A stretch of 64,000 nucleotides of DNA, taken from Escherichia coli. GTDB taxonomy: Bacteria > Pseudomonadota > Gammaproteobacteria > Enterobacterales > Enterobacteriaceae. The translations under genes and the position numbers were made by a program. The notes under the pieces were generated by a model. It was not told the DNA's origin, did no database searches, and was given only the letters and a program-made list of their open reading frames with translations. Below, piece after piece: positions 9,985 through 19,992 of the stretch. Location of the stretch: the NCBI RefSeq assembly GCF_003790525.1, contig NZ_CP033635.1. The stretch is one strand, 5' to 3'. Position 1 is the stretch's first letter; each line of letters opens with the position of its first letter.

Positions 9985-12459
9985 ATGAGACAGGAATGTA
10001 TACAAGCGGTCCAGCAGGCGGCGCAGCGCACGTTAACGGCGCGAGAAATACAGAACATTGAAGACCGCATTTATCGAAATATGCGCTCCATTGCTCGTGA
10101 TGACCCGATGTCGTGGCGACAACTTTCCGAATCAGAACGGTTGTATCGTGCAGCACAATTGGCATCTGAAGAATTACAGCGAGAAGCGGCATTAAAGAAA
10201 CGTCGTGTGGCCCTCACTATAGCCGCACGTCAGAGATTGGATAAATTTATCAATAGCTATCAAGGGGCTGATGGGAAACTTGGCGCTCTTAACCGTACTA
10301 TTGCTTTTAATGCAGACGGTAAATCGAATTTCCTCTCTGTTGAATCCAGAACAAAAGCCACCCGTGATTATGCATTGAGTCAATTGCAGGAGGCATTCGA
10401 AGCAGTTGATCCTCGCTTTTTTGGTCTGTTTGAAGATGAAGCGGGCGTACGTGACCTGGTATATGAAATGCGGGGGCAAAATACTGGCAATGCTAAAGCA
10501 AGAAAAGGTGCTAAGGCGTGGAGAGAAGTTACAGAGCTGCTGCGCCGCCGGTTTAATGATGCTGGTGGGGACATTGGCTATCTCGAAAACTGGGGGATCC
10601 CTCAACATCATTCTATGGAAAAGGTTGGGGCGGTATCAAAGGATAAGTGGGTTAGCGATGTTATAGGTAAGCTGGATCGCAAATATTATACCCGAGCCGA
10701 TGGACAACTGATGAACGATGCCGAGTTGTCTGAATTTCTTGGAGAGGCTTATAACACGATCGCTACTGGTGGGCTGAATAAGCTTACTGATACCGGAATG
10801 CGAATTTCCGGCGCACGTGCTAACCGTGGTAATGCATCACGACAGATACATTTCAAAGATGCAGATTCCTATCTGCAATATCAGCAACTTTATGGCGATC
10901 GCTCTCTATGGGAAATCATGGTCGGTCACCTGGAAGGTATCAGTAAAGATATTGCGCTGGTGGAAACATATGGCCCAAACCCCGATCATGTTTTCCGCTC
11001 CCTTCTTGATCAGGTTAAGGCAGAAACGGCAACAGCTAACCCGAGTAAAACCGGTAGCGTCGAGCGTCTGGCGAACAAAACAGAGAACTTGTACAACTTT
11101 ATTTCCGGAAAAACACAGCCTGTAGCGAATCCGCACATCGCGCGATGGTCTGACAATATCCGCAACTGGCTGGTTGCCAGCAGACTCGGATCCGCGTTGC
11201 TGTCATCGTTCTCTGATCTTGGAACCATGTATCTGTCTGCGAAGGTTACCAACCTTCCAATGAACCAGTTATTTCGCAACCAGCTTGAAGCTATGGACCC
11301 AACGAACCGTACAGAACTTGCGCGGGCGCGCCGCGCTGGCCTGGCGATGGAATCTCTACTTGGCAGCGTTAACCGCTGGGCGATGGATAATATGGGGCCG
11401 TCTGTGTCTCGTTGGGCGGCAACGGCGGTAATGCGTGCCAGTGGGCTTACAGCATGGTCAGATGCGCACAAGCGCGCCTATGGCGTAACCATGATGGGAA
11501 GCCTGGGAGAAGTAGTGTCACGGACACCAGACCTTCGTAGCCTCGATGACTCTGATTTTCGTATCCTGAAAAGCAAAGGGATTACTGACACAGACTGGAG
11601 CGTATGGAAGCTGGCGCAACAGGAGGACTGGGGGAACGGTAATAATACGATGCTGACACCGGAAAGCATTATGCGTATCCCTGATTCAGCAGTTAAACAT
11701 CTTGGTGAGCCTGAACGCGTGAAATTTGAGGCAATGCGTAAACTGCTCGGTGCCGTAACTGAAGAAGTTGATATGGCTGTTATTACACCGGGCGCACGTG
11801 AACAGATGTTCGTAGGGTCTGGTCTTCAGCGTGGAACATGGAAAGGTGAATTAACGAGAAGTGTTTTCCTGTTTAAATCGTTCCCTATCTCGGTAGTTAT
11901 GCGTCACTGGCATAGAGCTATGGGGATGCCGTCTGCTGGTGGGCGTGCGGCATATATAGCAACGTTTTTAGCAAGCACAACCATGCTTGGTGCTCTTTCC
12001 ATGCAGATTACTGATCTTATTAATGGGAGAAATCCAAAAGAAATGACCGGTGACAACATGGTTAAATTCTGGATAAATGCATTTTTAAAAGGTGGTGGGG
12101 CAGGGTTGTATGGTGATTTTCTTTTCTCTGACCACACCAGGTACGGGAGCGGCGCACTAGCGTCGATGCTTGGCCCGGTAGCTGGTCTGGTTGATGACGT
12201 AGTGAAGATTGCTCAGGGCATACCGTTAAATGCTGTGGAAGGGAAGAATGAGCAGACTGGTGGTGATCTGGTTAAGCTTGGGAAAGGTTTGATGCCTGGT
12301 GCGAATCTCTGGTACTTGAAGGCGGCTCTCGATCACATGATCTTTAATCAGATGCAGGAGTATTTTTCACCAGGCTATTTGCGTAAAATGGAGCAACGTT
12401 CGAAGAAAGAGTTTAACCAGACATACTGGTGGCGACCTCAGGATGTCACTCCGCAATAA
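9985..12459 (+). CDS. Internal virion / ejection protein (gp16-like position), 824 aa
   Basis: Last large gene of the structural operon; AGAGG RBS upstream. Confidence 0.5.
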   Translation: MRQECIQAVQQAAQRTLTAREIQNIEDRIYRNMRSIARDDPMSWRQLSESERLYRAAQLASEELQREAALKKRRVALTIAARQRLDKFINSYQGADGKLGALNRTIAFNADGKSNFLSVESRTKATRDYALSQLQEAFEAVDPRFFGLFEDEAGVRDLVYEMRGQNTGNAKARKGAKAWREVTELLRRRFNDAGGDIGYLENWGIPQHHSMEKVGAVSKDKWVSDVIGKLDRKYYTRADGQLMNDAELSEFLGEAYNTIATGGLNKLTDTGMRISGARANRGNASRQIHFKDADSYLQYQQLYGDRSLWEIMVGHLEGISKDIALVETYGPNPDHVFRSLLDQVKAETATANPSKTGSVERLANKTENLYNFISGKTQPVANPHIARWSDNIRNWLVASRLGSALLSSFSDLGTMYLSAKVTNLPMNQLFRNQLEAMDPTNRTELARARRAGLAMESLLGSVNRWAMDNMGPSVSRWAATAVMRASGLTAWSDAHKRAYGVTMMGSLGEVVSRTPDLRSLDDSDFRILKSKGITDTDWSVWKLAQQEDWGNGNNTMLTPESIMRIPDSAVKHLGEPERVKFEAMRKLLGAVTEEVDMAVITPGAREQMFVGSGLQRGTWKGELTRSVFLFKSFPISVVMRHWHRAMGMPSAGGRAAYIATFLASTTMLGALSMQITDLINGRNPKEMTGDNMVKFWINAFLKGGGAGLYGDFLFSDHTRYGSGALASMLGPVAGLVDDVVKIAQGIPLNAVEGKNEQTGGDLVKLGKGLMPGANLWYLKAALDHMIFNQMQEYFSPGYLRKMEQRSKKEFNQTYWWRPQDVTPQ

Positions 12460-12468
12460 GGAACAACA

Positions 12469-12882
12469 ATGAAGGAATTATTGCTGTTATCGGTATTTTT
12501 GATATCCGCTTGCTCGACATCCTATGATGTTTATGACGGTGTTGATAAGGCATATTGCGACAAAGTTAAAATGGATTTTTCTCTTGCCAAGACGGCGAAG
12601 GATAGTTGTATTGATCACTACGTCAAGACTTATACCAAGCCAGCCTCATCGGCATCTGATATTGCTGAAGGTGCTGTGTTTGAGTGTAACAAGGTGATAT
12701 CCATCGCAGCGAGTTCTTCATACGATGCTGCTGTATGTGCAATGGCTGAAAGAAACGGCATGTCAGTGCAAAAAATTAATAGCATGATAAGCAGTAATGA
12801 CGAAGCCAAAATAAGAACTGATATCAGCTCGGTGAAAAAAGATGCCATGAACAGAGTTGTAAAATATCAGTCATCTTTATAA
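12469..12882 (+). CDS. Prophage lipoprotein (signal peptide with lipobox L-I-S-A-C), 137 aa, AT-rich gene
   Basis: N-terminus MKELLLLSVFLISAC read directly; AAGGA RBS; sits at the start of the accessory island. Confidence 0.65.
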   Translation: MKELLLLSVFLISACSTSYDVYDGVDKAYCDKVKMDFSLAKTAKDSCIDHYVKTYTKPASSASDIAEGAVFECNKVISIAASSSYDAAVCAMAERNGMSVQKINSMISSNDEAKIRTDISSVKKDAMNRVVKYQSSL

Positions 12883-12897
12883 GTCGTGACATGTCAC

Positions 12898-12922
12898 AGG
12901 CCGCTTTCGCGGCCTTGTTTTT
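12898..12922 (+). terminator. Intrinsic terminator of the structural operon / lipoprotein gene
   Basis: AGGCCGC-TTTC-GCGGCCT hairpin followed by TGTTTTT. Confidence 0.6.
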
Positions 12923-13082
12923 AACGAATGCCACCGCCACCCGGGCGGGAATCCGCAGAACGCCCACCGCAGCGGGAGCCGTCAGCAGCAGTGTCGCTGT
13001 CGTGCTGACAACGACCGGCAAAGGCCTGAGTTGAAGCTACCAGAGACAACAAAACGAACAGTGCAGCAAATGCTTTTTTCAT
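12921..13082 (-). CDS. Candidate small secreted peptide (53 aa, Sec signal MKKAFAALFVLLSLVASTQAFA, two Cys)
   Basis: Internal ATG of the 77-aa ORF; convincing signal peptide but weak RBS; possible TTGACG / TATAGA promoter just upstream. Confidence 0.3.
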   Translation of the reverse strand: MKKAFAALFVLLSLVASTQAFAGRCQHDSDTAADGSRCGGRSADSRPGGGGIR

Positions 13083-13154
13083 TGTGAAATTTCCATCTAT
13101 AAGCCACCTCAATGTGGCGTCAATGAGTGTAGCACTGACTTTTGTTTCGCCCAC

Positions 13155-13176
13155 AAAAAAGCCCGCAGCGCGGGCT
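13155..13176 (-). terminator. Intrinsic terminator of the cargo operon
   Basis: AGCCCGC-GCU-GCGGGCU hairpin followed by six U on the - strand; overlaps the stop codon at 13175. Confidence 0.6.
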
Positions 13177-13615
13177 ATTCTTCTTCATCATTAAAAAGCG
13201 GATTGTTGTTTCCATCTGATGAAAGGAAAGGTATGTGTTCTCTTGAAAATCCAACAATGACAATTTCATTATCATTTTTTGCATAATGAATGCATTCATT
13301 AGAATGCCTTCCGCCAGGGTTGAAATTTAAGTTAATGGTATAATTCTTAAATGTGTTTGGATACCATGTTGGCCCACAATGATAATGCCAATAATTCTCT
13401 TGCTCATAATTGTCTGAGCCGGGAATTTTATCATGGTTATCATCAACCCACGAGGGCTTGTTTTTTCCAACAAGCGCCCTTCCATTGGCAACATCCTCTA
13501 AAAAACTTTGTATGATTTTTATTTCATCATCAGTAAGGAAAGGTCCGTCTACAGCGAAAGGGGTGTTGCTTTCCCCATGTAGAAAACTATTAGATATTCT
13601 AATGTTAAACTTCAA
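13175..13615 (-). CDS. Hypothetical cargo protein, about 146 aa, low GC, Asn-rich, no recognised domain
   Basis: Probable TTG start at 13615 with AGGAG RBS 6 nt upstream, 20 nt after the stop of the 55-aa ORF; ORF track shows a longer frame from 13756 that overlaps the upstream gene. Confidence 0.5.
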   Translation of the reverse strand: MKFNIRISNSFLHGESNTPFAVDGPFLTDDEIKIIQSFLEDVANGRALVGKNKPSWVDDNHDKIPGSDNYEQENYWHYHCGPTWYPNTFKNYTINLNFNPGGRHSNECIHYAKNDNEIVIVGFSREHIPFLSSDGNNNPLFNDEEE

Positions 13616-13635
13616 GGAAAACTCCTGATGTGCTT

Positions 13636-13803
13636 CTATTTGGAGCGAAATGCCGCCTTGAAGTCGCTGAAAGATGTTCCTGTCTGGTAAACCATATCCT
13701 TGTCGCGCTCTTTGCTTGCGCGGCCAAGCATAACTTTTCCAATGACATCCCAGCATTGCTTGGCTTGTTCATTGTGCTGAGTACGATTTTTCAACGCTGT
13801 CAT
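13636..13803 (-). CDS. Small protein (55 aa), first gene of the cargo operon; possible regulator or antitoxin-like partner
   Basis: ATG with AGGAGG RBS 6 nt upstream, placed immediately downstream of promoter P_A; translated by hand. Confidence 0.5.
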   Translation of the reverse strand: MTALKNRTQHNEQAKQCWDVIGKVMLGRASKERDKDMVYQTGTSFSDFKAAFRSK

Positions 13804-13815
13804 ATCGCGCCTCCT

Positions 13816-13858
13816 TTACCTTTAAGGTAATAGTACGCTATTCACCCACAGTCTGCAA
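13816..13858 (-). promoter_or_regulatory. Promoter P_A (-35 TTGCAG at 13853-13858, 17-bp spacer, -10 TACTAT at 13830-13835) with operator copy A (TTACC-TTTAA-GGTAA, 13816..13830)
   Basis: Hexamers and the 15-bp palindrome read directly; the operator abuts the -10 and the RBS. Confidence 0.55.
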
Positions 13859-13867
13859 TCTGTACAG

Positions 13868-13894
13868 AATTATTTAAAGGCACATCCCTGTGCC
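13868..13894 (-). terminator. Terminator-like hairpin after the antirepressor-like gene (GGCACA-GGGA-TGTGCC then TTTAAATAATT)
   Basis: Hairpin read directly; T-rich but interrupted tail. Confidence 0.45.
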
Positions 13895-13902
13895 GCCGCC
13901 CG

Positions 13903-14589
13903 TCAGAAGAACCCAGCCTTGTCGTTGATGTACTCCGCGTGGGTCTGGATATCACGCAGGCATTTGCTCACACCAACAATGTAGCAGAACATGGTGGTCA
14001 GCTCCGCCGCCGCGCCCGATACGTCGTGCCCGTCTTCCTGTAACTGGTTCAGCAGATTCATCAGCAGTGAGTTCTCCGTCAGGCCGAGAACACCAGACGG
14101 AGAATGAATCAGGCTGCGGTAGCCGGGCTTCAGTGGGGCACTGTAGGTTTTGTTCTCTATCTTCATTGCCTGCATCACTGCTGATGCTGTGGCGTTGGCT
14201 ACCTGGTCGGCAACTATCTTTATGCGTTCTTCCTGCGGGAGCGAGTTTTTAATGTAACTTCCGGTGCGGCGGATCTGAGGAAGAACCTCACCTGTAACCC
14301 ATTTACGAAAGCGGTAGGGGATAGTGCCTGGTGTCACTGCGTCGCGGCAGCGGAGGATCAGTGTGTAGAGGCCTGACTCGTTGATAATATTGGTTTCACC
14401 TTGACGGCCTAAGTTAAATTTAGCCCTTTCATCATCATCAAGAGATTTTATTGACATAGTGGGGTTTGTCAGTTGAAGAGCTTTAATAACGTCTTTGGCA
14501 ACAAACCAAGGATTTCCATCAATAACAATGGCTCGAATGGTGGCTTCTGATTCAAAATGAAAAACAGATGGGGTTACGTTAGCAGTCAT
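13903..14589 (-). CDS. Antirepressor-like protein with N-terminal BRO-N / AntA-type domain, 228 aa
   Basis: Motifs FHFE...IR..IDG.PWFVAKDV and ESGLY.LI read in the translation (BRO-N family, from memory); start set at ATG 14589 with AAGGTGA RBS rather than ORF-track 14742, which has no RBS and a Gly/Cys-rich non-protein-like extension. Confidence 0.8.
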   Translation of the reverse strand: MTANVTPSVFHFESEATIRAIVIDGNPWFVAKDVIKALQLTNPTMSIKSLDDDERAKFNLGRQGETNIINESGLYTLILRCRDAVTPGTIPYRFRKWVTGEVLPQIRRTGSYIKNSLPQEERIKIVADQVANATASAVMQAMKIENKTYSAPLKPGYRSLIHSPSGVLGLTENSLLMNLLNQLQEDGHDVSGAAAELTTMFCYIVGVSKCLRDIQTHAEYINDKAGFF

Positions 14590-14742
14590 AGTGATCACCT
14601 TTGTAGTTAGGTTAATCACCACTACCGACGCCAATCGGTTGGTGGTGAACTGTGCAGGGTTGGCGTAACCGGCTACAAAGGACCCGGCGCACCTTTCGGT
14701 GCCCCCACACAGCCCACCATAGAATAGGTGCGCTTTACACAT

Positions 14743-14761
14743 AAAAAAACCGCTTATGCGG
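14743..14761 (-). terminator. Short intrinsic terminator or attenuator in the leader of the antirepressor-like gene (CCGC-AUAA-GCGG followed by seven U)
   Basis: Read on the - strand; stem is only 4-5 bp, so call is tentative. Confidence 0.4.
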
Positions 14762-14855
14762 CATATGTGCCTCTGTAGTAACCCGGGACGCCAATCCCGG
14801 CACTGGATTTTGCCAGTGCCCGATTACTATGGCACAAGAGGAGTGCGATGTAAAT

Positions 14856-14898
14856 TTACCGAAAAGGTAATAATAAACACTCTACTTGGTAATTGCAA
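14856..14898 (-). promoter_or_regulatory. Promoter P_B (-35 TTGCAA at 14893-14898, 17-bp spacer, -10 TATTAT at 14870-14875) with operator copy B (TTACC-GAAAA-GGTAA, 14856..14870)
   Basis: Near-consensus sigma70 hexamers with exact 17-bp spacing; palindrome overlaps the -10 and start site. Confidence 0.6.
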
Positions 14899-14901
14899 AC
14901 C

Positions 14902-15159
14902 TTATCTGGTTTGTTTTCGTAATTGTTCGGCACAATAGTCGAGATGTGTTTGCAGATCCCGCATAGACATCTGTGAGCTGGTGACGTAGTTAATCAGTGC
15001 AGTCAGTTCGGCAAGTGGGCCATCGACATTAAATCCATCCTTATCGAGATCCCGGAGTAATTTCATCAAGTGCGATCCCTCCACCAGTGACCTGACGCCT
15101 CCCGGCGTGTGAATCCTTTCGGTAAATCCGTCTTCCAGTGGATAGTGATACTGCTGCAT
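14902..15159 (-). CDS. Small protein (85 aa) paralogous to the C-terminal domain of the adjacent antirepressor-like protein; candidate SOS-controlled small antirepressor
   Basis: By-eye alignment with the last ~70 aa of the 228-aa protein shows about 40 percent identity; ATG 15159 with GGAG RBS; LexA box directly upstream. Confidence 0.6.
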   Translation of the reverse strand: MQQYHYPLEDGFTERIHTPGGVRSLVEGSHLMKLLRDLDKDGFNVDGPLAELTALINYVTSSQMSMRDLQTHLDYCAEQLRKQTR

Positions 15160-15178
15160 CTTATCTTCTCCATGCAAT

Positions 15179-15198
15179 AACTGTATATTTATACAGTA
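15179..15198. promoter_or_regulatory. LexA (SOS) box AACTGTATATTTATACAGTA
   Basis: 18 of 20 positions match the consensus TACTGTATATATATACAGTA including both CTGT and ACAG arms; located immediately upstream of the 85-aa gene. Confidence 0.65.
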
Positions 15199-15235
15199 TC
15201 AAATAATTTGTTTGCTATCCAGCACGTTTTGCAAA

Positions 15236-15250
15236 TTACCCGAAAGGTAA
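15236..15250. promoter_or_regulatory. Operator copy C (TTACC-CGAAA-GGTAA) in the divergent region between the 85-aa gene and the tailspike gene, next to a TTGCAA hexamer (15229-15234)
   Basis: Third copy of the 15-bp palindrome; promoter partner hexamers not clearly assignable. Confidence 0.45.
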
Positions 15251-15354
15251 TATCTATTCGTATTTACAGTCTTTCTATCCATATGTGGTTTTTCAGGTAA
15301 TAGAATAACCAGATATGCGGCGCAACGGGTGCTGCGACTATCTGGAGATTTAAC

Positions 15355-17544
15355 ATGACGGTCTCAACCGAAGTTGACCACAACGAATACACCGGTAACG
15401 GCGTTACGACATCATTTCCGTATACCTTCCGTATTTTCAAAAAAACCGACCTGGTTGTTCAGGTGTCTGACCTGAACGGGAACGTAACAGAATTGGTTCT
15501 GGATACCGGTTATAAGGTAACTGGAGCGGGCACTTATAGTGGCGGTGAAGTGGTTCTCCAGTCGCCGCTTGCTGCTGGCTGGCGAATTACGATAGAGCGT
15601 GTGCTTGATGTGGTGCAGGAGACTGATCTTCGCAATCAGGGAAAATTTTTCCCCGAAGTTCATGAAGATGCATTTGACTACCTGACGATGCTGATCCAGC
15701 GATGTTTTGGGTGGTTCAGACGTGCATTGATGAAACCATCTTTGCTTGCAAAATATTACGATGCAAAGCAAAACAAAATTTCTAACCTTGCAGATCCATC
15801 ATTTGAGCAGGACGCTGTAAATAATCGCTCAATGCGTAATTATGTCGATGCTGCAATCGCCGGGGTTGTTGGTGGTTTTGGTTGGTTTATACCGTCAGGA
15901 AGCGGGGCAAGACAACGAACATTTCAAAGCAAAATGAGGGATATAATTTCTCCTTGTGATTACGAAGATAATATTTTTATGATTAAGGAGTTGATATCCA
16001 AAGGCAAAAATGCCGCTGTTTTTAACTCATATTATACTTTTGTTATTACTGTTGGCGAATGGGGTGATTTCCCTACACTCAAAGATGCAATCATTGCAGC
16101 CCAGTCAATGAGACCTATGTGGGATGGTGGTAATGCTTTCTGCGAAATAAGAATTAAGACCGGGCATATTATCAACTATCAAATTGAATTCAGTTCAGGT
16201 GTTGATTTGTCTTGGATTAAAATAACATCAGAAGACTCAGTGGTTTTCTCTGACACTCGTTTGTTTACTAAAATCGTTAGAACGTATTACGAATACAAGT
16301 ATTTATTTTACATTTGCGATGCAGCAAAAAGTCCTGTATTTGCTATTCAGATCGAAGAAAATAGAGATGATAGCGATGTTTGTGCATTTATTGTAACTCA
16401 AAAAGCTGAACTTAATTTCTATCCGTATTCAGGTGCTCGAAAGTTCTACGTTGGAATTCATGGTAGTTTTGGTGCAAAAATTAGTGCATATCATACCGGA
16501 TGTGCTCCTGATGAGGAAAGTGTTGCTGCATATATGCCAGAAGGGTATTACGTATGTGATTTTTCTTATAGCAGATACTCTTCCCTGCAACTGGTAAATA
16601 ATGTCAAGGCATCAATGCCTGTAAGCAAGTTTGAACGGTGCACAGAGAGTACGGTTGCGTCAGTTAATTGTATTTATAATGTTAAAGCAGATTTTCAGGG
16701 GTCAAGTGCAAGCTATTGTTATATAGGATGGAATGTAAGAGATGGTTCAAATGTTAATATACGCGACCATAAAACTATACATTGCTCATATCGTGGATTA
16801 ACCTGCATTCATACAGCATATGTTGATGCAAGACGACATGACGTTGAAGAAAGTGATGCAGAAACAAGTGGTAAAGTCCTTGAACCAAATATTGAAAAAG
16901 GTTTTTATGGATGTGCACTTGGTGTGCGTATTGATGGTGCGGGTTGCGTTGATGTTGCTGGTAATGATATGCGCAATTGTGGAACAGCCGTTAATGCAGA
17001 CACTGGTGCTGTTATTTCAGGAAAGGCTGTAGATATCTCAGGGGCTGAGCTGGGATTTGATTGCCATGCAGGAGCATCTGTTAATTTTCCAAGGCTATGG
17101 GGTACAGATATAAAAAAATTAATGCACCTCCAAGATGGTGTAAGGTTTAACTCTAATATTTGTCATGTATTTGGTGCAAATCCCACAAAAGATATTAGAT
17201 GGATTGATGTAGAGAGATCTGAAGCTTCTTTTATGAATGCAACGCTGGATGCAGATTCAGGATTTATTGCCGACTGTGGTAGTAGGATAACCATTGAAGG
17301 AAGTAAAGTTAAAAACCAAACAATAAGAAGTTTTTTTGGATCATATGTGGCTATAAATAATACTGTTGCTGACAGAACTTATTCAGATATAGCCGATGTT
17401 CCGCAGTTGACTATTAGTGGAGGATCTTTTATTTCTGCTACAGGATATTCTAATTCTGACTCCAGCCCTCTGAGGTTGAGCACAACACGAAATACACTTG
17501 GCGTTGGAGGAGCCATATTTTCAACCAATGGGGAAGTTTCATGA
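15355..17544 (+). CDS. Tailspike / tail fiber protein, 729 aa: conserved N-terminal virion-attachment domain plus divergent C-terminal receptor-binding part
   Basis: N-terminus carries the YTGNGVTT.F.Y.F pattern typical of podovirus tail fiber or tailspike adapters (from memory); C-terminal two thirds are AT-rich and Cys-rich; GGAG RBS 7 nt upstream. Confidence 0.7.
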   Translation: MTVSTEVDHNEYTGNGVTTSFPYTFRIFKKTDLVVQVSDLNGNVTELVLDTGYKVTGAGTYSGGEVVLQSPLAAGWRITIERVLDVVQETDLRNQGKFFPEVHEDAFDYLTMLIQRCFGWFRRALMKPSLLAKYYDAKQNKISNLADPSFEQDAVNNRSMRNYVDAAIAGVVGGFGWFIPSGSGARQRTFQSKMRDIISPCDYEDNIFMIKELISKGKNAAVFNSYYTFVITVGEWGDFPTLKDAIIAAQSMRPMWDGGNAFCEIRIKTGHIINYQIEFSSGVDLSWIKITSEDSVVFSDTRLFTKIVRTYYEYKYLFYICDAAKSPVFAIQIEENRDDSDVCAFIVTQKAELNFYPYSGARKFYVGIHGSFGAKISAYHTGCAPDEESVAAYMPEGYYVCDFSYSRYSSLQLVNNVKASMPVSKFERCTESTVASVNCIYNVKADFQGSSASYCYIGWNVRDGSNVNIRDHKTIHCSYRGLTCIHTAYVDARRHDVEESDAETSGKVLEPNIEKGFYGCALGVRIDGAGCVDVAGNDMRNCGTAVNADTGAVISGKAVDISGAELGFDCHAGASVNFPRLWGTDIKKLMHLQDGVRFNSNICHVFGANPTKDIRWIDVERSEASFMNATLDADSGFIADCGSRITIEGSKVKNQTIRSFFGSYVAINNTVADRTYSDIADVPQLTISGGSFISATGYSNSDSSPLRLSTTRNTLGVGGAIFSTNGEVS

Positions 17545-17837
17545 TTAAGAGCATTGATGTCACTCCATTTCTTCACTCGCTTTGCGCTTTTGCGGCTCAG
17601 GTACTGGTTGGTATTTTTACCGGAAACTGGGCTTACGGTGCGATAGCCGGTTGTACGTTCTTCATTGCGCGTGAACACACCCAGGCAGAATATCGCTGGA
17701 TAGAAAAGTTTGGGAAAGGGAAACGTATCAACATGCCGTGGTGGGGAGGTTTTGATCCACGCGTGTGGGATGTGGGAAGTCTGTTGGATTTTGCTGTTCC
17801 TGTTGTTTTTTGTTTTTGTGTTTATTTCTCTATTTGA
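17541..17837 (+). CDS. Small membrane protein (98 aa, two hydrophobic helices)
   Basis: ATGA overlap with the tailspike stop; hydrophobic stretches in translation. Confidence 0.5.
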   Translation: MIKSIDVTPFLHSLCAFAAQVLVGIFTGNWAYGAIAGCTFFIAREHTQAEYRWIEKFGKGKRINMPWWGGFDPRVWDVGSLLDFAVPVVFCFCVYFSI

Positions 17838-18039
17838 CTGCTACCGCGCCATTAAATGGTGCGGTATTCAACCTGCTCTTCACTGTTTGTTTCTTCAGAG
17901 TCATGTAAAAGGTGAGCTTTATTCTCGGCATGAAAAACAGGGAATTGACGATGTTAAAGTAACAAAAAACCATAAATGGTTTATTATGCGTAATGCTTTA
18001 CTGTTCAGGAGGTTGTTATGCATATAAACGGTGGAAAAC

Positions 18040-18444
18040 ATGTCAGCTCAACTAACCAGTGAAACTTTAAATCAGTGGCTTAGCATGAGTTCTCTGGCGG
18101 CGGTGATAGCAGGAGTTCCTCCTGAGGTTGCTTTGGGTGCTTTGGCTGGAGCGGTAATTTTTGTTACCTCTGCAGTAGAGTACCCCATCCGTCGCCGGGT
18201 GCTCCTGTCGATGCTCAGCTTTCTTTGCGGCCTTCTCTTTTACAAACCAGCAGCATCAATTCTTATCGGCATAGCCAGCCTGATCCCTACCATCACGCAG
18301 GACTCTTTTGAAAAAGGGATTGTTTTCTCTGCAGGCGCATTCGTGTCAGCAATTGTCGCTGTGCGTATTGGTATATGGCTCTATCACCGTTCCGATAATC
18401 CACGCGAGTTAATTCCGGGGAGAAAAGACGATGGTAACGCATGA
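18040..18444 (+). CDS. Membrane protein, holin or antiholin candidate (in-frame alternative start GTG 18031)
   Basis: Several predicted transmembrane stretches; two in-frame starts three codons apart (GTG-GAA-AAC-ATG). Confidence 0.45.
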   Translation: MSAQLTSETLNQWLSMSSLAAVIAGVPPEVALGALAGAVIFVTSAVEYPIRRRVLLSMLSFLCGLLFYKPAASILIGIASLIPTITQDSFEKGIVFSAGAFVSAIVAVRIGIWLYHRSDNPRELIPGRKDDGNA

Positions 18445-18739
18445 GTTTTTTTTGCTTATCACCAATGCAGTTATTTGCACTGGCATAGCAATTCGCGTTG
18501 TCACATTCCGGCGTAACGGCTCTCAACACCGAAGGTGGGGAGGATGGCTTGCTTATTTCCTGATTGTTGCTGCGGCCAGTATTCCTGTTCGTGTCGCCTA
18601 TGCAATCTGGTTACGTACGCCAATGGCTGTGGATTTATCTGAGGTCATTATCAACGCTGTCATGCTAGCTGCGGTTATTAAAACGCGCGGTAACGTCGTT
18701 CAAATTTTCAAAGTATCGAGGTCTAAACATGGAGATTAA
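18431..18739 (+). CDS. Holin candidate (102 aa, 2-3 transmembrane helices) immediately upstream of the endolysin
   Basis: Position and hydrophobicity pattern; overlaps neighbours at both ends. Confidence 0.5.
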
Positions 18740-19358
18740 ACAATTCCAGCGAGCTGCTGGTATCAGCGAGGCACTGGCCGCACGCTGGTTCTCGCATATA
18801 ACTTCTGCGATGAAAGAGTTTGGTATCAGCAAACCAGAAGATCAGGCTATGTTTATTGCTCAGGTCGGGCATGAGTCTGGAGGCTTCACCCGGTTGCAGG
18901 AGAATTTCAACTACAGCGTCAGCGGACTGGCTAACTTTGTTCGGGCTGGGCGTCTCACTCAGGGACAGGCCAACGCATTGGGGCGACGTGCAGGCGAACC
19001 ACCATTGCCACTTGAGCGCCAGAGAGCGATTGCCAATCTGGTGTACAGCAAACGCATGGGGAACAATGCCCCTGGTGATGGCTGGAACTACCGTGGGCGC
19101 GGGCTTATCCAGGTTACCGGTTTGAATAACTATCGTGACTGTGGAAACGGTCTTAAGGTTGACCTGCTGGAGAGTCCTGAACTGCTGGCGCAGGACGAAT
19201 ACGCGGCTCGTAGCGCGGCGTGGTTCTTTGCCAGCAAAGGATGCATGAAGTATACCGGCGATATTGCACGTGTAACTCTGATTATCAATGGTGGCCGGAA
19301 CGGCATCGACGACCGGCGCGCGCGATACATCAATGCCAGTAAGGTGCTGGCGGTATGA
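18729..19358 (+). CDS. Endolysin, glycoside hydrolase family 19 (chitinase-like) type
   Basis: Motifs [18 protein letters not shown] and NYRD read in the translation, recalled as GH19-type phage lysozyme signatures; position between holin and Rz. Confidence 0.8.
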
Positions 19359-19837
19359 TCTGGGCATTCGTAAAAGCATACTGGAAACAGTTGGTTATCA
19401 TGGCGATGCTTGCTGTTCTGGTCATATCAGGAGTTGTAGCCTGGAATGCACACGGTAGTCGTCAGTACGACGCCGGGTATGCGCAGGCGGAAGAAGACCG
19501 CAAAGACGAAGAAGACAAAGTTCGTCAGTACTACGAACAGGAGAAAGTGACCAATGAACGTGAAGCGCAGCAAAGAATCGACCAGGCGCGCAATGATGCT
19601 CTTGATGCTGCCGCTCGCGCTGGCAGGTTGCAGCAACAACTCTTTGCCATCCGTGAGCAGCTCAGGCAGTATAACGCCATTGTCGGCGCTGGGACGTCAG
19701 CCGCAGACACCGGAGTTTTGCTTGCCGACGTGCTCAGCAAATCTCTCGAGAGAAACAGACAACTGGCAGAGTATGCTGACCGGGCAGCCGAAGCCGGAAG
19801 AGTCTGCGAAAAACAGTACGACACCCTGACCAGATAG
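19355..19837 (+). CDS. Rz-like i-spanin (N-terminal transmembrane helix, coiled-coil periplasmic domain)
   Basis: ATGA overlap with endolysin stop; typical Rz architecture. Confidence 0.7.
19554..19829 (+). CDS. Rz1-like o-spanin lipoprotein, fully embedded in the Rz gene in the +1 frame
   Basis: Signal peptide ending in lipobox LAGC, Pro-rich mature part, embedded arrangement as in lambda Rz/Rz1 (established knowledge). Confidence 0.65.
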   Translation: MNVKRSKESTRRAMMLLMLPLALAGCSNNSLPSVSSSGSITPLSALGRQPQTPEFCLPTCSANLSRETDNWQSMLTGQPKPEESAKNSTTP

Positions 19838-19992
19838 CATGGTATTTTTCATGGCACTGATTTCCGGTGACGGTATATAAAACGGTACGGGAAAAGTTGA
19901 GCTTTGGAAAAATGTTATCACTCAATTGGTTATGGTGTCCGTGAATAATTGAGTGGGAATGATTTTGATCCCTGCACTATGAATGAACAAAA

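What the first reader, a model, noticed from the sequence alone, without database searches (positions are those of the whole stretch)
12469..15354. Candidate undescribed regulatory/cargo module between ejection-protein genes and tailspike
Seen: an AT-rich island interrupts the + strand virion operon and holds a lipoprotein gene, a small secreted peptide, a two-gene cargo operon (55 aa + 146 aa), a BRO-N antirepressor-like gene, and an 85-aa paralogue of its C-terminal domain. The three - strand units each carry the 15-bp palindrome TTACC-N5-GGTAA, and the 85-aa gene sits behind a near-consensus LexA box. Established knowledge: phage P22 places its immI region (mnt, arc, ant, plus sieA) at the equivalent position between gene 16 and the tailspike, and small LexA-controlled antirepressors are known from Gifsy and 186-type phages. 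Inference: this is an SOS-responsive antirepression circuit wired by a common operator to an unknown cargo operon, a combination I do not recognise as described.
Basis: partly seen in the sequence, partly recalled or inferred. Interest (0 to 1): 0.8.

Follow-up and report, generated by a model that had tools for sequence, protein, structure and literature searches.

The report
Phage antirepressor island with cargo genes

Summary
All six ORFs, three exact TTACC-N5-GGTAA palindromes and a 15/16 LexA box lie where stated.

- The 85-aa gene is the Ant antirepressor of Salmonella phage SPC32H, about 87% identical to PDB 5D50 chain E. It sits at the same genome position behind the same LexA box.
- The BRO-N gene is a fusion of BRO-N to that same Ant domain. 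Its 270-nt leader encodes an IsrK-like sRNA and a C4 antisense RNA, both above the Rfam gathering scores. The C4 loops pair with the BRO-N ribosome-binding site, and this pairing co-varies in four specificity types. This is the P1/P7 immI and Gifsy-1 IsrK logic.
- The "common operator" is not specific to the island. It is the commonest palindrome in three related phage genomes, including three copies between the repressor and cro-like genes. It is most likely the Rep operator.
- The 55+146-aa operon is a strictly conserved gene pair (82 of 82 loci). The 146-aa protein has a RelE/ParE-like fold and no family annotation, so it is a candidate toxin–antitoxin-like cassette. Its charge pattern is atypical. 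It occupies a swap slot that holds a YafO-family pair or a DUF4760 gene in relatives.

Overall this is a new member of known kinds, and only the cargo is open.

The parts
12469..12882 (+). 137-aa putative lipoprotein gene, 9 nt after the 824-aa virion-protein gene. Function unknown (phrog_8691).
   Evidence: ORF and PGAP call. PHROG hit. No Pfam family at E<=0.001. Relatives carry a different gene at this position.
12898..12915 (+). Intrinsic-terminator-like hairpin that would end the + strand virion/lipoprotein transcript.
12921..13082 (-). 53-aa signal-peptide protein gene (phrog_14503, 'membrane associated protein', moron category). It has its own promoter-like TTGACG-16-TATAGA (13123-13096) and no palindrome.
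   Evidence: Promoter read by eye.
13160..13176 (.). Bidirectional terminator-like hairpin that would end the cargo operon.
   Evidence: found on both strands.
13175..13615 (-). 146-aa cargo protein with a RelE/ParE-superfamily-like fold. H77, H79 and H127 are invariant. The protein is acidic. It is a candidate toxin-like component.
13636..13803 (-). 55-aa basic partner protein (phrog_8607). Its C-terminal motif is conserved in the gene immediately upstream of every homologue of the 146-aa gene that was examined.
   Evidence: 82 of 82 loci have an upstream gene, with a gap of -17 to +21 nt. Alignment, R28 invariant. The Klebsiella 121-aa version hits phrog_8607 at E 1.7e-5. pLDDT is 82-95 when modelled fused to the 146-aa protein.
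13816..13858 (-). Cargo promoter TTGCAG-17-TACTAT (13858-13830) with operator 1, TTACCTTTAAGGTAA (13816-13830). The operator starts at the last base of the -10 hexamer and runs into the Shine-Dalgarno sequence.
   Evidence: The promoter side is conserved in TL-2011b, and the cassette side differs from the palindrome onwards.
13903..14589 (-). 228-aa BRO-N::Ant fusion. BRO-N covers residues 18-104 and an SPC32H-Ant-like domain covers residues 147-224.
   Evidence: Match to 5D50_E at E 1.1e-13. PHROG antirepressor families.
14598..14634 (-). C4 targets in the BRO-N mRNA. b2 is UUGGCGU (14634-14628). a2 is CUACAAAGG (14606-14598), ends 8 nt before the AUG and overlaps the Shine-Dalgarno sequence.
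   Evidence: Complementarity and co-variation in four specificity types.
14638..14724 (-). C4 antisense RNA (Rfam RF01695). Its a' sequence CCUUUGUAG lies in a loop, and its b' sequence ACGCCAA lies in a single-stranded stretch.
   Evidence: 79.5 bits against a gathering score of 45. Conserved in four related loci.
14743..14832 (-). IsrK-like sRNA and a1b1 decoy region (RF01394 at 14743-14819, RF03163 at 14780-14832). It carries b1 and a1 and ends at an intrinsic terminator (14762-14749).
   Evidence: 74.7 bits against a gathering score of 50, and 44.1 bits against 46.7. Terminator. b1 and a1 are complementary to C4.
14856..14898 (-). Promoter TTGCAA-17-TATTAT (14898-14870) with operator 2, TTACCGAAAAGGTAA (14856-14870). 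Geometry matches the cargo promoter.
14902..15159 (-). ant: an 85-aa antirepressor, orthologue of SPC32H Ant, epsilon15 gp19 and phiV10 p24.
   Evidence: 5D50_E at E 1.4e-46. 86.7% identical to the annotated ant of SPC32H.
15181..15196 (.). LexA box CTGTATATTTATACAG, overlapping a TATAAA -10-like hexamer on the - strand.
   Evidence: Conserved in SPC32H, phiV10 and a Pectobacterium prophage.
15236..15250 (.). Operator 3, TTACCCGAAAGGTAA, about 55 bp upstream of the LexA box in the ant-tailspike divergent region.
   Evidence: Conserved at the same place in SPC32H and, with 1 mismatch, in phiV10.

Best explanation
The island is the antirepression (immI-equivalent) region of an epsilon15/phiV10-like (Uetakevirus) prophage. 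Moron cassettes have been added to it. Five steps follow, and each is marked as shown or inferred.

1. **ant (85 aa).** This is the SPC32H-type antirepressor. In the lysogen, LexA sits on its SOS box. DNA damage removes LexA, Ant is made, and Ant binds the prophage repressor Rep and breaks up its DNA-binding tetramer. Homology and the box are shown here. The mechanism is taken from work on SPC32H.

2. **TTACC-N5-GGTAA.** This is the phage-wide operator, most likely of Rep. In the island it overlaps the start sites of the cargo promoter and the isrK-c4-bro promoter, and it lies upstream of the ant promoter. These units would therefore be shut in the lysogen and open once Rep is inactivated, or before Rep has accumulated after infection. 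Positions are shown. Binding is inferred.

3. **BRO-N::Ant fusion.** This second antirepressor carries the same Rep-binding-type domain and has an extra RNA lock. Its leader produces a short terminated IsrK-like RNA carrying b1 and a1. Read-through produces the C4 RNA. The a' and b' sequences of C4 pair with b2 and a2 on the mRNA, and a2 covers the Shine-Dalgarno sequence, so translation is blocked. Surplus IsrK-like RNA can titrate C4. Pairing and co-variation are shown. Regulation is inferred by analogy with P1/P7 c4 and Gifsy-1 IsrK. The net effect would be a feed-forward that reinforces induction, plus C4-type-specific immunity during infection.

4. **55+146-aa operon.** This is an exchangeable two-gene cassette. 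It encodes a RelE/ParE-fold protein and an obligatory small partner. It is most likely a toxin-antitoxin-like or abortive-infection-like module, and its expression is tied to the state of Rep. Fold and gene pairing are shown. Function is inferred and uncertain.

5. **Lipoprotein and secreted peptide.** These are independent morons of unknown function.
For: **Phage identity and layout**
- establish the phage type and the island layout.

**Ant and Rep**
- Ant matches 5D50_E at E 1.4e-46.
- Rep of the closest complete genome matches 5D50_A at E 3.5e-42.
- SPC32H annotates ant at the same position.
- The LexA box and operator 3 are conserved in SPC32H and phiV10.
- A secondary source (PMC9638917) describes a Rep tetramer on palindromic sites that is broken up by an Ant tetramer.

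**Operator**
- There are 8 exact copies in the rest of the WWCOL-236 prophage. These include the rep/cro intergenic region and a PL-like promoter.
- SPC32H and Klebsiella phage BUCT711 have the same layout.
- It is the commonest 5-Nx-5 palindrome in all three genomes, with 9-10 copies against 3 or fewer for any unrelated palindrome.

**RNA layer**
- Rfam scores are 79.5 bits for C4 and 74.7 bits for isrK.
- Both are conserved upstream of BRO-N genes in phiV10, TL-2011b, phiv142-3 and a Pectobacterium prophage.
- a'/a2/a1 and b'/b2/b1 are complementary and co-vary in four types, and a2 ends 8 nt before the AUG.
- An intrinsic terminator follows the IsrK-like part.

**Cargo**
- Searches support the fold and the gene pairing.
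- The slot holds a YafO-family pair or a DUF4760 gene in relatives.
Against: - The window does not contain the immunity region. Rep and its operators were read from the closest complete genome (island 100% identical, tailspike different) and from SPC32H and BUCT711.
- Rep binding to this palindrome was not seen in any paper I could open. The two SPC32H papers are not held in the library.
- All the Uetakeviruses sampled share the same palindrome, so no heteroimmune co-variation test was possible.
- Operator 3 lies near -60 of the likely ant promoter. That is too far to block RNA polymerase by itself.
- For the cargo, Foldseek against the PDB is not significant (best E 0.16).
- There is no sequence link to YafO (hhalign probability 0.25%).
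- The charge pattern is the reverse of canonical RelE-type pairs, with pI 4.9 for the 146-aa protein and 9.8 for the partner.
- The partner has no recognisable DNA-binding domain.
Confidence: 0.75

Rival explanations
1. The island is a self-contained, undescribed circuit. An island-specific operator, bound by an island-encoded regulator in the manner of Mnt/Arc, couples an SOS-responsive antirepressor to the cargo operon.
For: Within the 64-kb window the exact palindrome occurs only in the island. The position matches that of P22 immI (established knowledge).
Against: - The same palindrome occurs 8-10 times elsewhere in this and related phage genomes, including three sites between rep and the cro-like gene.
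- No island ORF hits a ribbon-helix-helix or helix-turn-helix family.
- The 55-aa protein travels with the 146-aa gene into contexts that lack the palindrome.
- The Ant/LexA part is already characterised in SPC32H.
Confidence: 0.04
2. The palindrome is bound mainly by another phage protein rather than by Rep. Candidates are the Cro-like protein or a late or early activator. Alternatively both Rep and Cro use it, as at lambda operators. The island units would then follow lytic-cycle timing and would not simply be repressed in lysogeny.
For: - The tripartite arrangement in the rep/cro region is what a shared Rep/Cro operator looks like.
- Sites also lie ahead of the terminase, portal and integrase genes.
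Against: - The sites overlap the -10/+1 or -35 of sigma-70-like promoters. That is repressor geometry.
- Rep of SPC32H is reported to bind palindromic sites as a tetramer.
- The presumed recognition helix region, NLVNRW, is conserved between the two Reps.
Confidence: 0.15
3. The 55+146-aa pair is not a toxin-antitoxin module with the 146-aa protein as toxin.
- It could be a lytic-cycle effector, such as a host-takeover or anti-defence nuclease, with a chaperone or inhibitor.
- The polarity could be reversed, with the small basic protein as the active partner and the acidic RelE-fold protein as its neutraliser.
- It could be a structural mimic without nuclease activity.
For: - The large protein is acidic and the partner basic. 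This is the reverse of RelE, YafQ and HigB pairs.
- Foldseek is not significant.
- A promoter carrying an operator predicts expression when Rep is absent, not in the lysogen.
- Distant partners are 99-211 aa long. The longer ones carry a hydrophobic N-terminus and hit no Pfam family.
Against: - Three histidines are invariant, and N52, K53, Y78 and Y111 are nearly invariant.
- The tight two-gene arrangement holds in 82 of 82 loci.
- The same slot holds an annotated YafO-family toxin pair in TL-2011b.
Confidence: 0.4

Closest known systems
Rep/Ant antirepression switch of Salmonella phage SPC32H (Kim & Ryu 2013, J Virol; Kim et al. 2016, PNAS; PDB 5D50, 5D4Z)
   Same: - Ant is 86.7% identical and has the same length.
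- ant lies in the same place and orientation, between the 824-aa virion-protein gene and the tailspike.
- The LexA box is the same, and the same palindrome lies upstream.
- A homologous Rep is present in the closest complete prophage.
   Different: The SPC32H island holds only ant and a 46-aa membrane protein. Here the island also carries a BRO-N::Ant paralogue with an RNA leader, a two-gene cargo, a secreted peptide and a lipoprotein.
immI of phages P1/P7 (c4 antisense RNA - icd - ant, with the C1-controlled promoter P51a)
   Same: - A C4-family RNA lies in the leader of an antirepressor operon.
- Two recognition sequences (a', b') pair with one target set upstream and one downstream.
- The downstream target covers a ribosome-binding site.
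- Specificity types co-vary, as they do between P1 and P7.
- A repressor operator sits at the promoter. P1 facts are from established knowledge.
   Different: - There is no icd-like ORF. a2 covers the Shine-Dalgarno sequence of the antirepressor gene itself.
- The antirepressor is a BRO-N::SPC32H-Ant fusion, not P1 Ant1/2.
- A terminated IsrK-like RNA precedes C4.
isrK-orf45-anrP locus of Gifsy-1 (Hershko-Shalev et al. 2016, PMC4825925)
   Same: - There is an IsrK-family sRNA with an intrinsic terminator.
- Read-through gives a transcript carrying a stable downstream RNA (STnc1160 there, C4 here) and an antirepressor gene.
- The short RNA shares complementarity with the downstream RNA.
   Different: - In Gifsy-1, translation enters through orf45 and is coupled to anrP. 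Here no conserved upstream ORF is evident. A 1-nt indel in relatives falls inside the only candidate, a 32-aa ORF.
- The promoter here carries the Uetakevirus operator.
APSE phages of Hamiltonella (c4 + isrK next to a BRO-N gene; bioRxiv 10.1101/2020.03.17.996009)
   Same: c4 and isrK lie next to a BRO-N gene, with a'/b' matching the non-coding region upstream of that gene.
   Different: The phage group is different. No SPC32H-type Ant domain or LexA-controlled paralogue is reported there.
immI of phage P22 (mnt, arc, ant, sar, sieA)
   Same: It occupies the same position, between an ejection/virion protein gene and the tailspike, and it encodes an antirepressor (established knowledge).
   Different: - The window has no Arc/Mnt-type repressor and no sar RNA.
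- The relative TL-2011b does carry an arc-like gene, ant and sar beside this island.
RelE/ParE-superfamily type II toxin-antitoxin systems (RelBE, DinJ-YafQ, YefM-YoeB, HigBA; YafNO)
   Same: - The small upstream gene and the larger downstream gene are tightly linked.
- The cassette has its own promoter and terminator.
- The slot is shared with a YafO-family pair.
   Different: - There is no sequence-family membership.
- The protein is about 60 residues larger than the canonical toxins.
- The putative toxin is acidic and its partner basic.
- The partner lacks a known DNA-binding domain.
- The promoter carries the phage's operator rather than an evident autoregulatory site.

Membership tests
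SPC32H-type Rep/Ant antirepression | Small (~86 aa) Ant homologous to PDB 5D50 chain E | tested here: met
   E 1.4e-46 over residues 2-84. 86.7% identity to the annotated ant of SPC32H.
SPC32H-type Rep/Ant antirepression | SOS (LexA) box in the ant promoter | tested here: met
   CTGTATATTTATACAG at 15181-15196. Aligned with the box of SPC32H and phiV10. LexA binding itself was not tested.
SPC32H-type Rep/Ant antirepression | Cognate Rep homologous to 5D50 chain A in the same prophage | tested here: inconclusive
   Met in WWCOL-236, whose island is 100% identical (E 3.5e-42). The window itself does not reach the immunity region.
SPC32H-type Rep/Ant antirepression | Ant binds Rep and breaks up the Rep tetramer | not testable with these tools
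   Known for SPC32H only (secondary description).
P1/P7 immI (c4 RNA system) | C4-family RNA in the leader of the antirepressor operon | tested here: met
   RF01695 at 79.5 bits, gathering score 45. Conserved in four related loci.
P1/P7 immI (c4 RNA system) | a'/b' complementary to an upstream (a1, b1) and a downstream (a2, b2) target pair, with co-variation between specificity types | tested here: met
   7-9-nt perfect complements in all five loci. Four specificity types co-vary. In the window a1 pairs through one G-U.
P1/P7 immI (c4 RNA system) | The downstream target covers the ribosome-binding site of icd, to which ant expression is coupled | tested here: not met
   a2 ends 8 nt before the AUG of the BRO-N::Ant gene itself. 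There is no conserved icd-like ORF.
P1/P7 immI (c4 RNA system) | C4 RNA is released from the leader by processing (RNase P) | not testable with these tools
   The RNA ends in CACCACCA, as do family members.
IsrK locus (Gifsy-1) | IsrK-family sRNA ending at an intrinsic terminator, followed by an antirepressor gene | tested here: met
   RF01394 at 74.7 bits, gathering score 50. Terminator at 14762-14749. BRO-N::Ant lies downstream.
IsrK locus (Gifsy-1) | Upstream ORF (orf45) whose translation is coupled to the antirepressor | tested here: not met
   The only candidate is a 32-aa ORF (14710-14612). A 1-nt indel in phiV10 and TL-2011b breaks its frame.
P22 immI | Arc/Mnt ribbon-helix-helix repressors and sar antisense RNA | tested here: not met
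   No such protein family hit. No sar hit in the window at E<=1.
Type II TA, RelE/ParE superfamily | Toxin with a RelE/ParE fold | tested here: inconclusive
Type II TA, RelE/ParE superfamily | Tightly linked two-gene operon with a conserved partner | tested here: met
   82 of 82 loci, gap -17 to +21 nt, shared C-terminal motif.
Type II TA, RelE/ParE superfamily | Membership of a curated toxin or antitoxin sequence family | tested here: not met
   No Pfam, NCBIfam or PADLOC hit for either protein, nor for 41 family members.
Type II TA, RelE/ParE superfamily | Basic RNA/ribosome-binding toxin and acidic antitoxin with a DNA-binding domain | tested here: not met
   pI 4.9 for the 146-aa protein and 9.8 for the 55-aa protein. 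The family medians are 5.1 and 8.9. No DNA-binding domain was found.
Type II TA, RelE/ParE superfamily | Toxicity that the partner neutralises | not testable with these tools
   Only indirect evidence. The partner segment reaches pLDDT 82-95 in a linker-fused AF2 model. No coordinates or PAE were available.
YafO toxin family (PF13957) | Match to the YafO profile, or to the YafO-family cassette of TL-2011b | tested here: not met
   No Pfam or NCBIfam hit. hhalign probability 0.25%, E 0.24.

The most novel reading that the evidence does not exclude
The 55+146-aa pair founds an unannotated family of RelE-fold two-component modules. It has 122 representative clusters in gamma-proteobacterial prophages, inoviruses and Mu-like phages. 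In Uetakeviruses its expression is wired to the prophage repressor through a Rep operator. It would then act as a 'repressor-guard': a toxin-like or abortive-infection module that fires when Rep is inactivated by induction or by an incoming phage's antirepressor. The operator would also serve as the recombination joint for swapping such cassettes.
Probability: 0.15. Interest if true: 0.6.

Novelty: new member of a known kind. Interest (0 to 1): 0.35.

Why it matters
**For annotation**
- The genes labelled "hypothetical protein" behind the LexA box in hundreds of E. coli prophages are SPC32H-type ant genes.
- The 270-nt "non-coding gap" before the BRO-N gene is an IsrK/C4 RNA switch.

**For biology**
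- This prophage carries two antirepressors with the same Rep-binding-type domain. One is unlocked by LexA cleavage and the other by an RNA switch. This gives a testable design for how induction is made irreversible, and for how related prophages cross-talk.

**For discovery**
- The only truly open item is the 55+146-aa pair. It is a widespread, strictly paired family with a toxin-like fold and no annotation. It would be cheap to test for toxicity and for phage defence.

Tried and rejected
- **YafO relationship of the 146-aa protein.** The pattern WHYH / IHY / H resembles YafO motifs by eye. Pfam, NCBIfam and hhalign give nothing, so this was rejected as a membership claim.
- **Defence-system libraries.** PADLOC gave no hit for any of the six proteins.
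- **Profile of 41 family members against PDB sequences.** Only chance hits appeared.
- **Weak Trp-leader hit.** The Rfam 'Trp_leader' match at 13153-13259 scores 21.5 bits against a gathering score of 41 (E 0.47) and was dismissed as chance.
- **55-aa protein as an Arc-like operator-binding protein.** This was rejected. It hits no ribbon-helix-helix family, its predicted secondary structure is helix-strand-helix, and it co-occurs with the 146-aa gene where the palindrome is absent.
- **Co-variation test of operator against Rep specificity.** All the Uetakeviruses sampled (E. coli, Salmonella, Klebsiella, Pectobacterium) use the same palindrome, so the test has no power.
- **Reading the two SPC32H papers and the epsilon15 genome paper.** They are not held in the library. 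LexA control of ant and the Rep/Ant mechanism therefore rest on my own knowledge, the PDB and GenBank names, and a secondary description.
- **Interface analysis of the fused 55+146 model.** Coordinates and PAE are not exposed, so only pLDDT could be used.
- **Other SOS boxes in the prophage.** There is only one loose CTGT-N8-ACAG match, and it has a GC-containing spacer.

Full report
**1.

NCBI's pipeline calls the same six in E. coli WWCOL-236, whose sequence is 100% identical to window 12400-15400.

The 228-aa protein has a Pfam Bro-N domain at residues 18-104, E 1.3e-19. Its residues 147-224 align with the 85-aa protein at 41% identity, E 2e-16.

TTACC-N5-GGTAA occurs exactly three times, at 13816, 14856 and 15236, and nowhere else in the window. 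At up to one mismatch there are 7 matches against 1.18 expected, and no shuffle out of 100 reaches 7. CTGTATATTTATACAG at 15181-15196 is a 15/16 match to the LexA consensus.

"AT-rich island" is only half true. GC alternates between 37-42% and 49-55%.

**2. What phage this is.**

The region belongs to an epsilon15/phiV10-like podophage of the genus Uetakevirus. The window begins inside the virion-gene module. In WWCOL-236 the immunity and replication genes lie beyond the window's left end. The absence of the palindrome from the rest of the window therefore says nothing about whether it is specific to the island.

The island is variable.
- SPC32H has only a 46-aa membrane protein gene and ant between its 824-aa virion-protein gene and its tailspike.
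- phiV10 adds a BRO-N gene.
- TL-2011b, phiv142-3 and the window add further cassettes.

**3. The LexA-box gene is a known antirepressor.**

The 85-aa protein matches the "Anti-repressor protein" chain of PDB 5D50 at E 1.4e-46. It is 86.7% identical to the gene annotated ant in SPC32H. The helix-turn-helix protein of the WWCOL-236 prophage matches the "Repressor" chain of the same entry at E 3.5e-42.

The region upstream of ant aligns with that of SPC32H and phiV10, including the LexA box and the palindrome about 55 bp further upstream.

A secondary source describes the mechanism. Rep binds palindromic DNA as a tetramer, and a tetramer of Ant binds two Rep dimers and breaks the tetramer (PMC9638917). 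That ant is repressed by LexA in SPC32H comes from my own knowledge of Kim & Ryu 2013. That paper's title is cited, but the paper is not held in the library.

No other convincing SOS box exists in the prophage.

**4.

Between operator 2 and the BRO-N start codon, Rfam finds three matches on the minus strand.

| Family | Window coordinates | Bits | Gathering score |
|---|---|---|---|
| isrK (RF01394) | 14743-14819 | 74.7 | 50 |
| C4 antisense RNA (RF01695) | 14638-14724 | 79.5 | 45 |
| c4-a1b1 (RF03163) | 14780-14832 | 44.1 | 46.7 |

An intrinsic terminator follows the IsrK-like part. Both RNAs recur upstream of the BRO-N gene in phiV10, TL-2011b, phiv142-3 and a Pectobacterium prophage.

The pairing is as follows.
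- The C4 loop sequence CCUUUGUAG (a') is perfectly complementary to CUACAAAGG (a2). a2 ends 8 nt before the BRO-N AUG and so covers the Shine-Dalgarno sequence.
- ACGCCAA (b') is complementary to UUGGCGU (b2), 38 nt upstream of the AUG.
- Both also pair with b1 and a1 inside the IsrK-like RNA.

Across the five loci there are four specificity types, and a', a1 and a2 change together, as do b', b1 and b2. Examples for b' are ACGCCAA, AGACCAA and GUCUCAA, with targets UUGGCGU, UUGGUCU and UUGAGAC. This co-variation is strong evidence that the pairing is under selection.

The logic is that of c4 in P1/P7 immI (established knowledge; also summarised). It also matches the IsrK locus of Gifsy-1, where short IsrK activates translation of the downstream antirepressor AnrP and a stable RNA, STnc1160, lies in between.

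c4 and isrK beside a BRO-N gene, with a'/b' matching its upstream region, have already been noted in APSE phages.

There are two differences here.
- No icd- or orf45-like ORF is present. The only candidate, 32 codons long, is broken by a 1-nt indel in close relatives.
- The antirepressor is a BRO-N fusion to the SPC32H-type Ant domain.

**5. The palindrome is a genus-wide operator.**

In the rest of the WWCOL-236 prophage the motif occurs eight more times exactly, and several more times with 1-2 mismatches. There are 36 matches at up to 2 mismatches against 8.6 expected. The sites are:
- three between rep and the divergent cro-like gene;
- two at a PL-like promoter just downstream of rep;
- sites ahead of the DUF1064, portal-operon, terminase and integrase genes.

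SPC32H and Klebsiella phage BUCT711 have the same map, including a site upstream of ant. A de novo count of all perfect 5-Nx-5 palindromes ranks TTACC-N5-GGTAA first in all three genomes, with 9-10 copies against 3 or fewer for any unrelated palindrome.

In the island, operators 1 and 2 begin at the last base of good -10 hexamers. The promoters are TTGCAG-17-TACTAT and TTGCAA-17-TATTAT. The PL-like promoter has the same geometry.

I infer that these sites are operators of Rep, possibly shared with the Cro-like protein. Binding was not tested, and I could not read the primary papers.

**6. The cargo operon.**

The 146-aa protein has no Pfam, NCBIfam or PADLOC match. It belongs to a family with 34 clusters by word search and 122 representatives by profile search. 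None of 41 members hits Pfam.

H77, H79 and H127 are invariant. N52, K53, Y78 and Y111 are nearly so.

In 82 of 82 loci the gene is preceded, within -17 to +21 nt, by a gene whose last 40 or so residues share a motif. The loci include E. coli, Pectobacterium, Klebsiella lambdoid prophages, a Vibrio inovirus and Pasteurellaceae phages. The partner is 50-69 aa long in some and 99-211 aa long in others.

When the two window proteins are modelled as one chain joined by a 30-residue linker on a paired alignment, the partner segment reaches pLDDT 82-95 while the linker stays near 40. That is suggestive of a complex, but no interface could be inspected.

The operon has its own promoter, operator and terminator.

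In relatives the same slot holds other genes.
- TL-2011b holds a 59+181-aa pair annotated as a YafO-family toxin.
- Ecol_AZ146 holds a DUF4760 gene.
- In TL-2011b the sequence diverges from the window exactly at the palindrome.

Three points argue against a canonical toxin-antitoxin reading.
- There is no profile similarity to YafO.
- The charges are reversed. The family median pI is 5.1 for the large protein and 8.9 for the partner.
- The partner has no DNA-binding domain.

**7. Most likely mechanism.**

Shown here: homologies, positions, RNA complementarity and co-variation, and gene pairing.

Inferred:
- In the lysogen Rep occupies the palindromes and LexA occupies the ant box.
- Any leak from the isrK promoter mostly ends at the terminator, and C4 blocks the BRO-N::Ant ribosome-binding site.
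- DNA damage removes LexA. Ant then inactivates Rep, which opens PR, PL, the cargo promoter and the isrK promoter.
- A surge of IsrK-like RNA, carrying b1 and a1, titrates C4. The second antirepressor is then translated and keeps Rep off after LexA recovers.
- During infection the C4 lock keeps this antirepressor from blocking the establishment of lysogeny, and it gives type-specific immunity.
- The cargo is expressed whenever Rep is absent. I favour a toxin-antitoxin-like or abortive-infection-like role with about 45% confidence. The alternatives are listed among the rival explanations.

**8. Comparison and verdict.**

- The LexA/Ant part is a member of the SPC32H system. All sequence-level features are met.
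- The RNA part works like P1/P7 immI and the Gifsy-1 IsrK locus, but it fails the icd/orf45 feature. It is therefore a relative of those loci and not a copy.
- It is not a P22-type immI, because it has no Arc, Mnt or sar.
- The cargo is at best a divergent relative of the RelE/ParE superfamily.

What remains open is the function of the cargo pair and of the two small envelope proteins, and the role of operator 3, which lies about -60 from the ant promoter.

Interest is 0.35. The verdict is a new member of known kinds.

**9. Caveats.**

- The immunity region was read from proxies: WWCOL-236, SPC32H and BUCT711. The window's own prophage has a different tailspike from WWCOL-236 and is a mosaic.
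- All regulatory statements are sequence-based.

Noticed in passing
L002 (phage TL-2011b) 281-1465, with sar at 452-519: Next to the same island TL-2011b carries a P22-type arc-like repressor gene and ant, with a sar antisense RNA hit (RF00262, 44.8 bits against a gathering score of 43). One phage therefore has three differently controlled antirepressor modules.
   Followed up: partly
window 13816-13830; L002 2554-2568; L092 979-1518: The slot between the secreted-peptide gene and the BRO-N gene is a cassette swap site. It holds the 55+146 pair, a YafO-family pair or a DUF4760 gene. In TL-2011b, similarity to the window breaks exactly at the palindrome, which could therefore act as the recombination joint.
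   Followed up: partly
L009 3391-3405; also L052 and L054 at 1843-1857: In Klebsiella lambdoid prophages (nin region) the cassette is preceded by an exact copy of the palindrome (TTACCATTAAGGTAA in L009 and L054, TTACCTTTAAGGTAA in L052), 330-339 nt upstream, ahead of an extra 95-aa gene. The motif is absent from every other non-Uetakevirus context of the cassette.
   Followed up: partly
window 13175-13803: The charge pattern is the reverse of canonical RelE-type pairs. The large RelE-fold protein has pI 4.9 and the partner pI 9.8. The YafO-family cassette of TL-2011b shows the same inversion (5.8 and 10.0).
   Followed up: yes
window 15285-15305: A conserved half-site ATTACC-N2-AAAAACC (minus strand) abuts a TAGAAT hexamer on the + strand, about 50 nt before the tailspike start. 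It is invariant in E. coli, Salmonella and Pectobacterium relatives. It may be part of a tailspike promoter, or a second contact for a Rep tetramer bound at operator 3.
   Followed up: no
window 15355-17544: The island is 100% identical to WWCOL-236 but the tailspike differs. The window has a 729-aa ORF, and WWCOL-236 has a 671-aa GH28-related protein. The best matches for 15400-19900 are in other strains at 99.3% identity. This indicates a recombination junction at or after the conserved tailspike N-terminus.
   Followed up: partly
window 14612-14710 (-): A 32-aa ORF starting with GTG lies inside the C4 RNA region, where Gifsy-1 has orf45. A 1-nt indel in phiV10 and TL-2011b falls within it, so it is probably not coding.
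   Followed up: partly
window 13096-13123 (-): The 53-aa secreted-peptide gene has its own promoter-like TTGACG-16-TATAGA, read by eye, with no palindrome. It is likely to be expressed in the lysogen, as a classic moron would be.
   Followed up: no
L074 1125-1682; L055 1915-2496; L012 3426-3932: Partners of distant 146-aa homologues are 160-211 aa long (phrog_18778). They have a hydrophobic N-terminal stretch and hit no Pfam family. Only their last 40 or so residues resemble the 55-aa protein.
   Followed up: partly
L007 2588-2664 and 2888-3736: In the WWCOL-236 prophage a tRNA-Arg gene and a 282-aa moron gene sit between the terminase and portal genes. Copies of the same palindrome lie 5 nt before the moron start and upstream of the portal operon.
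   Followed up: no
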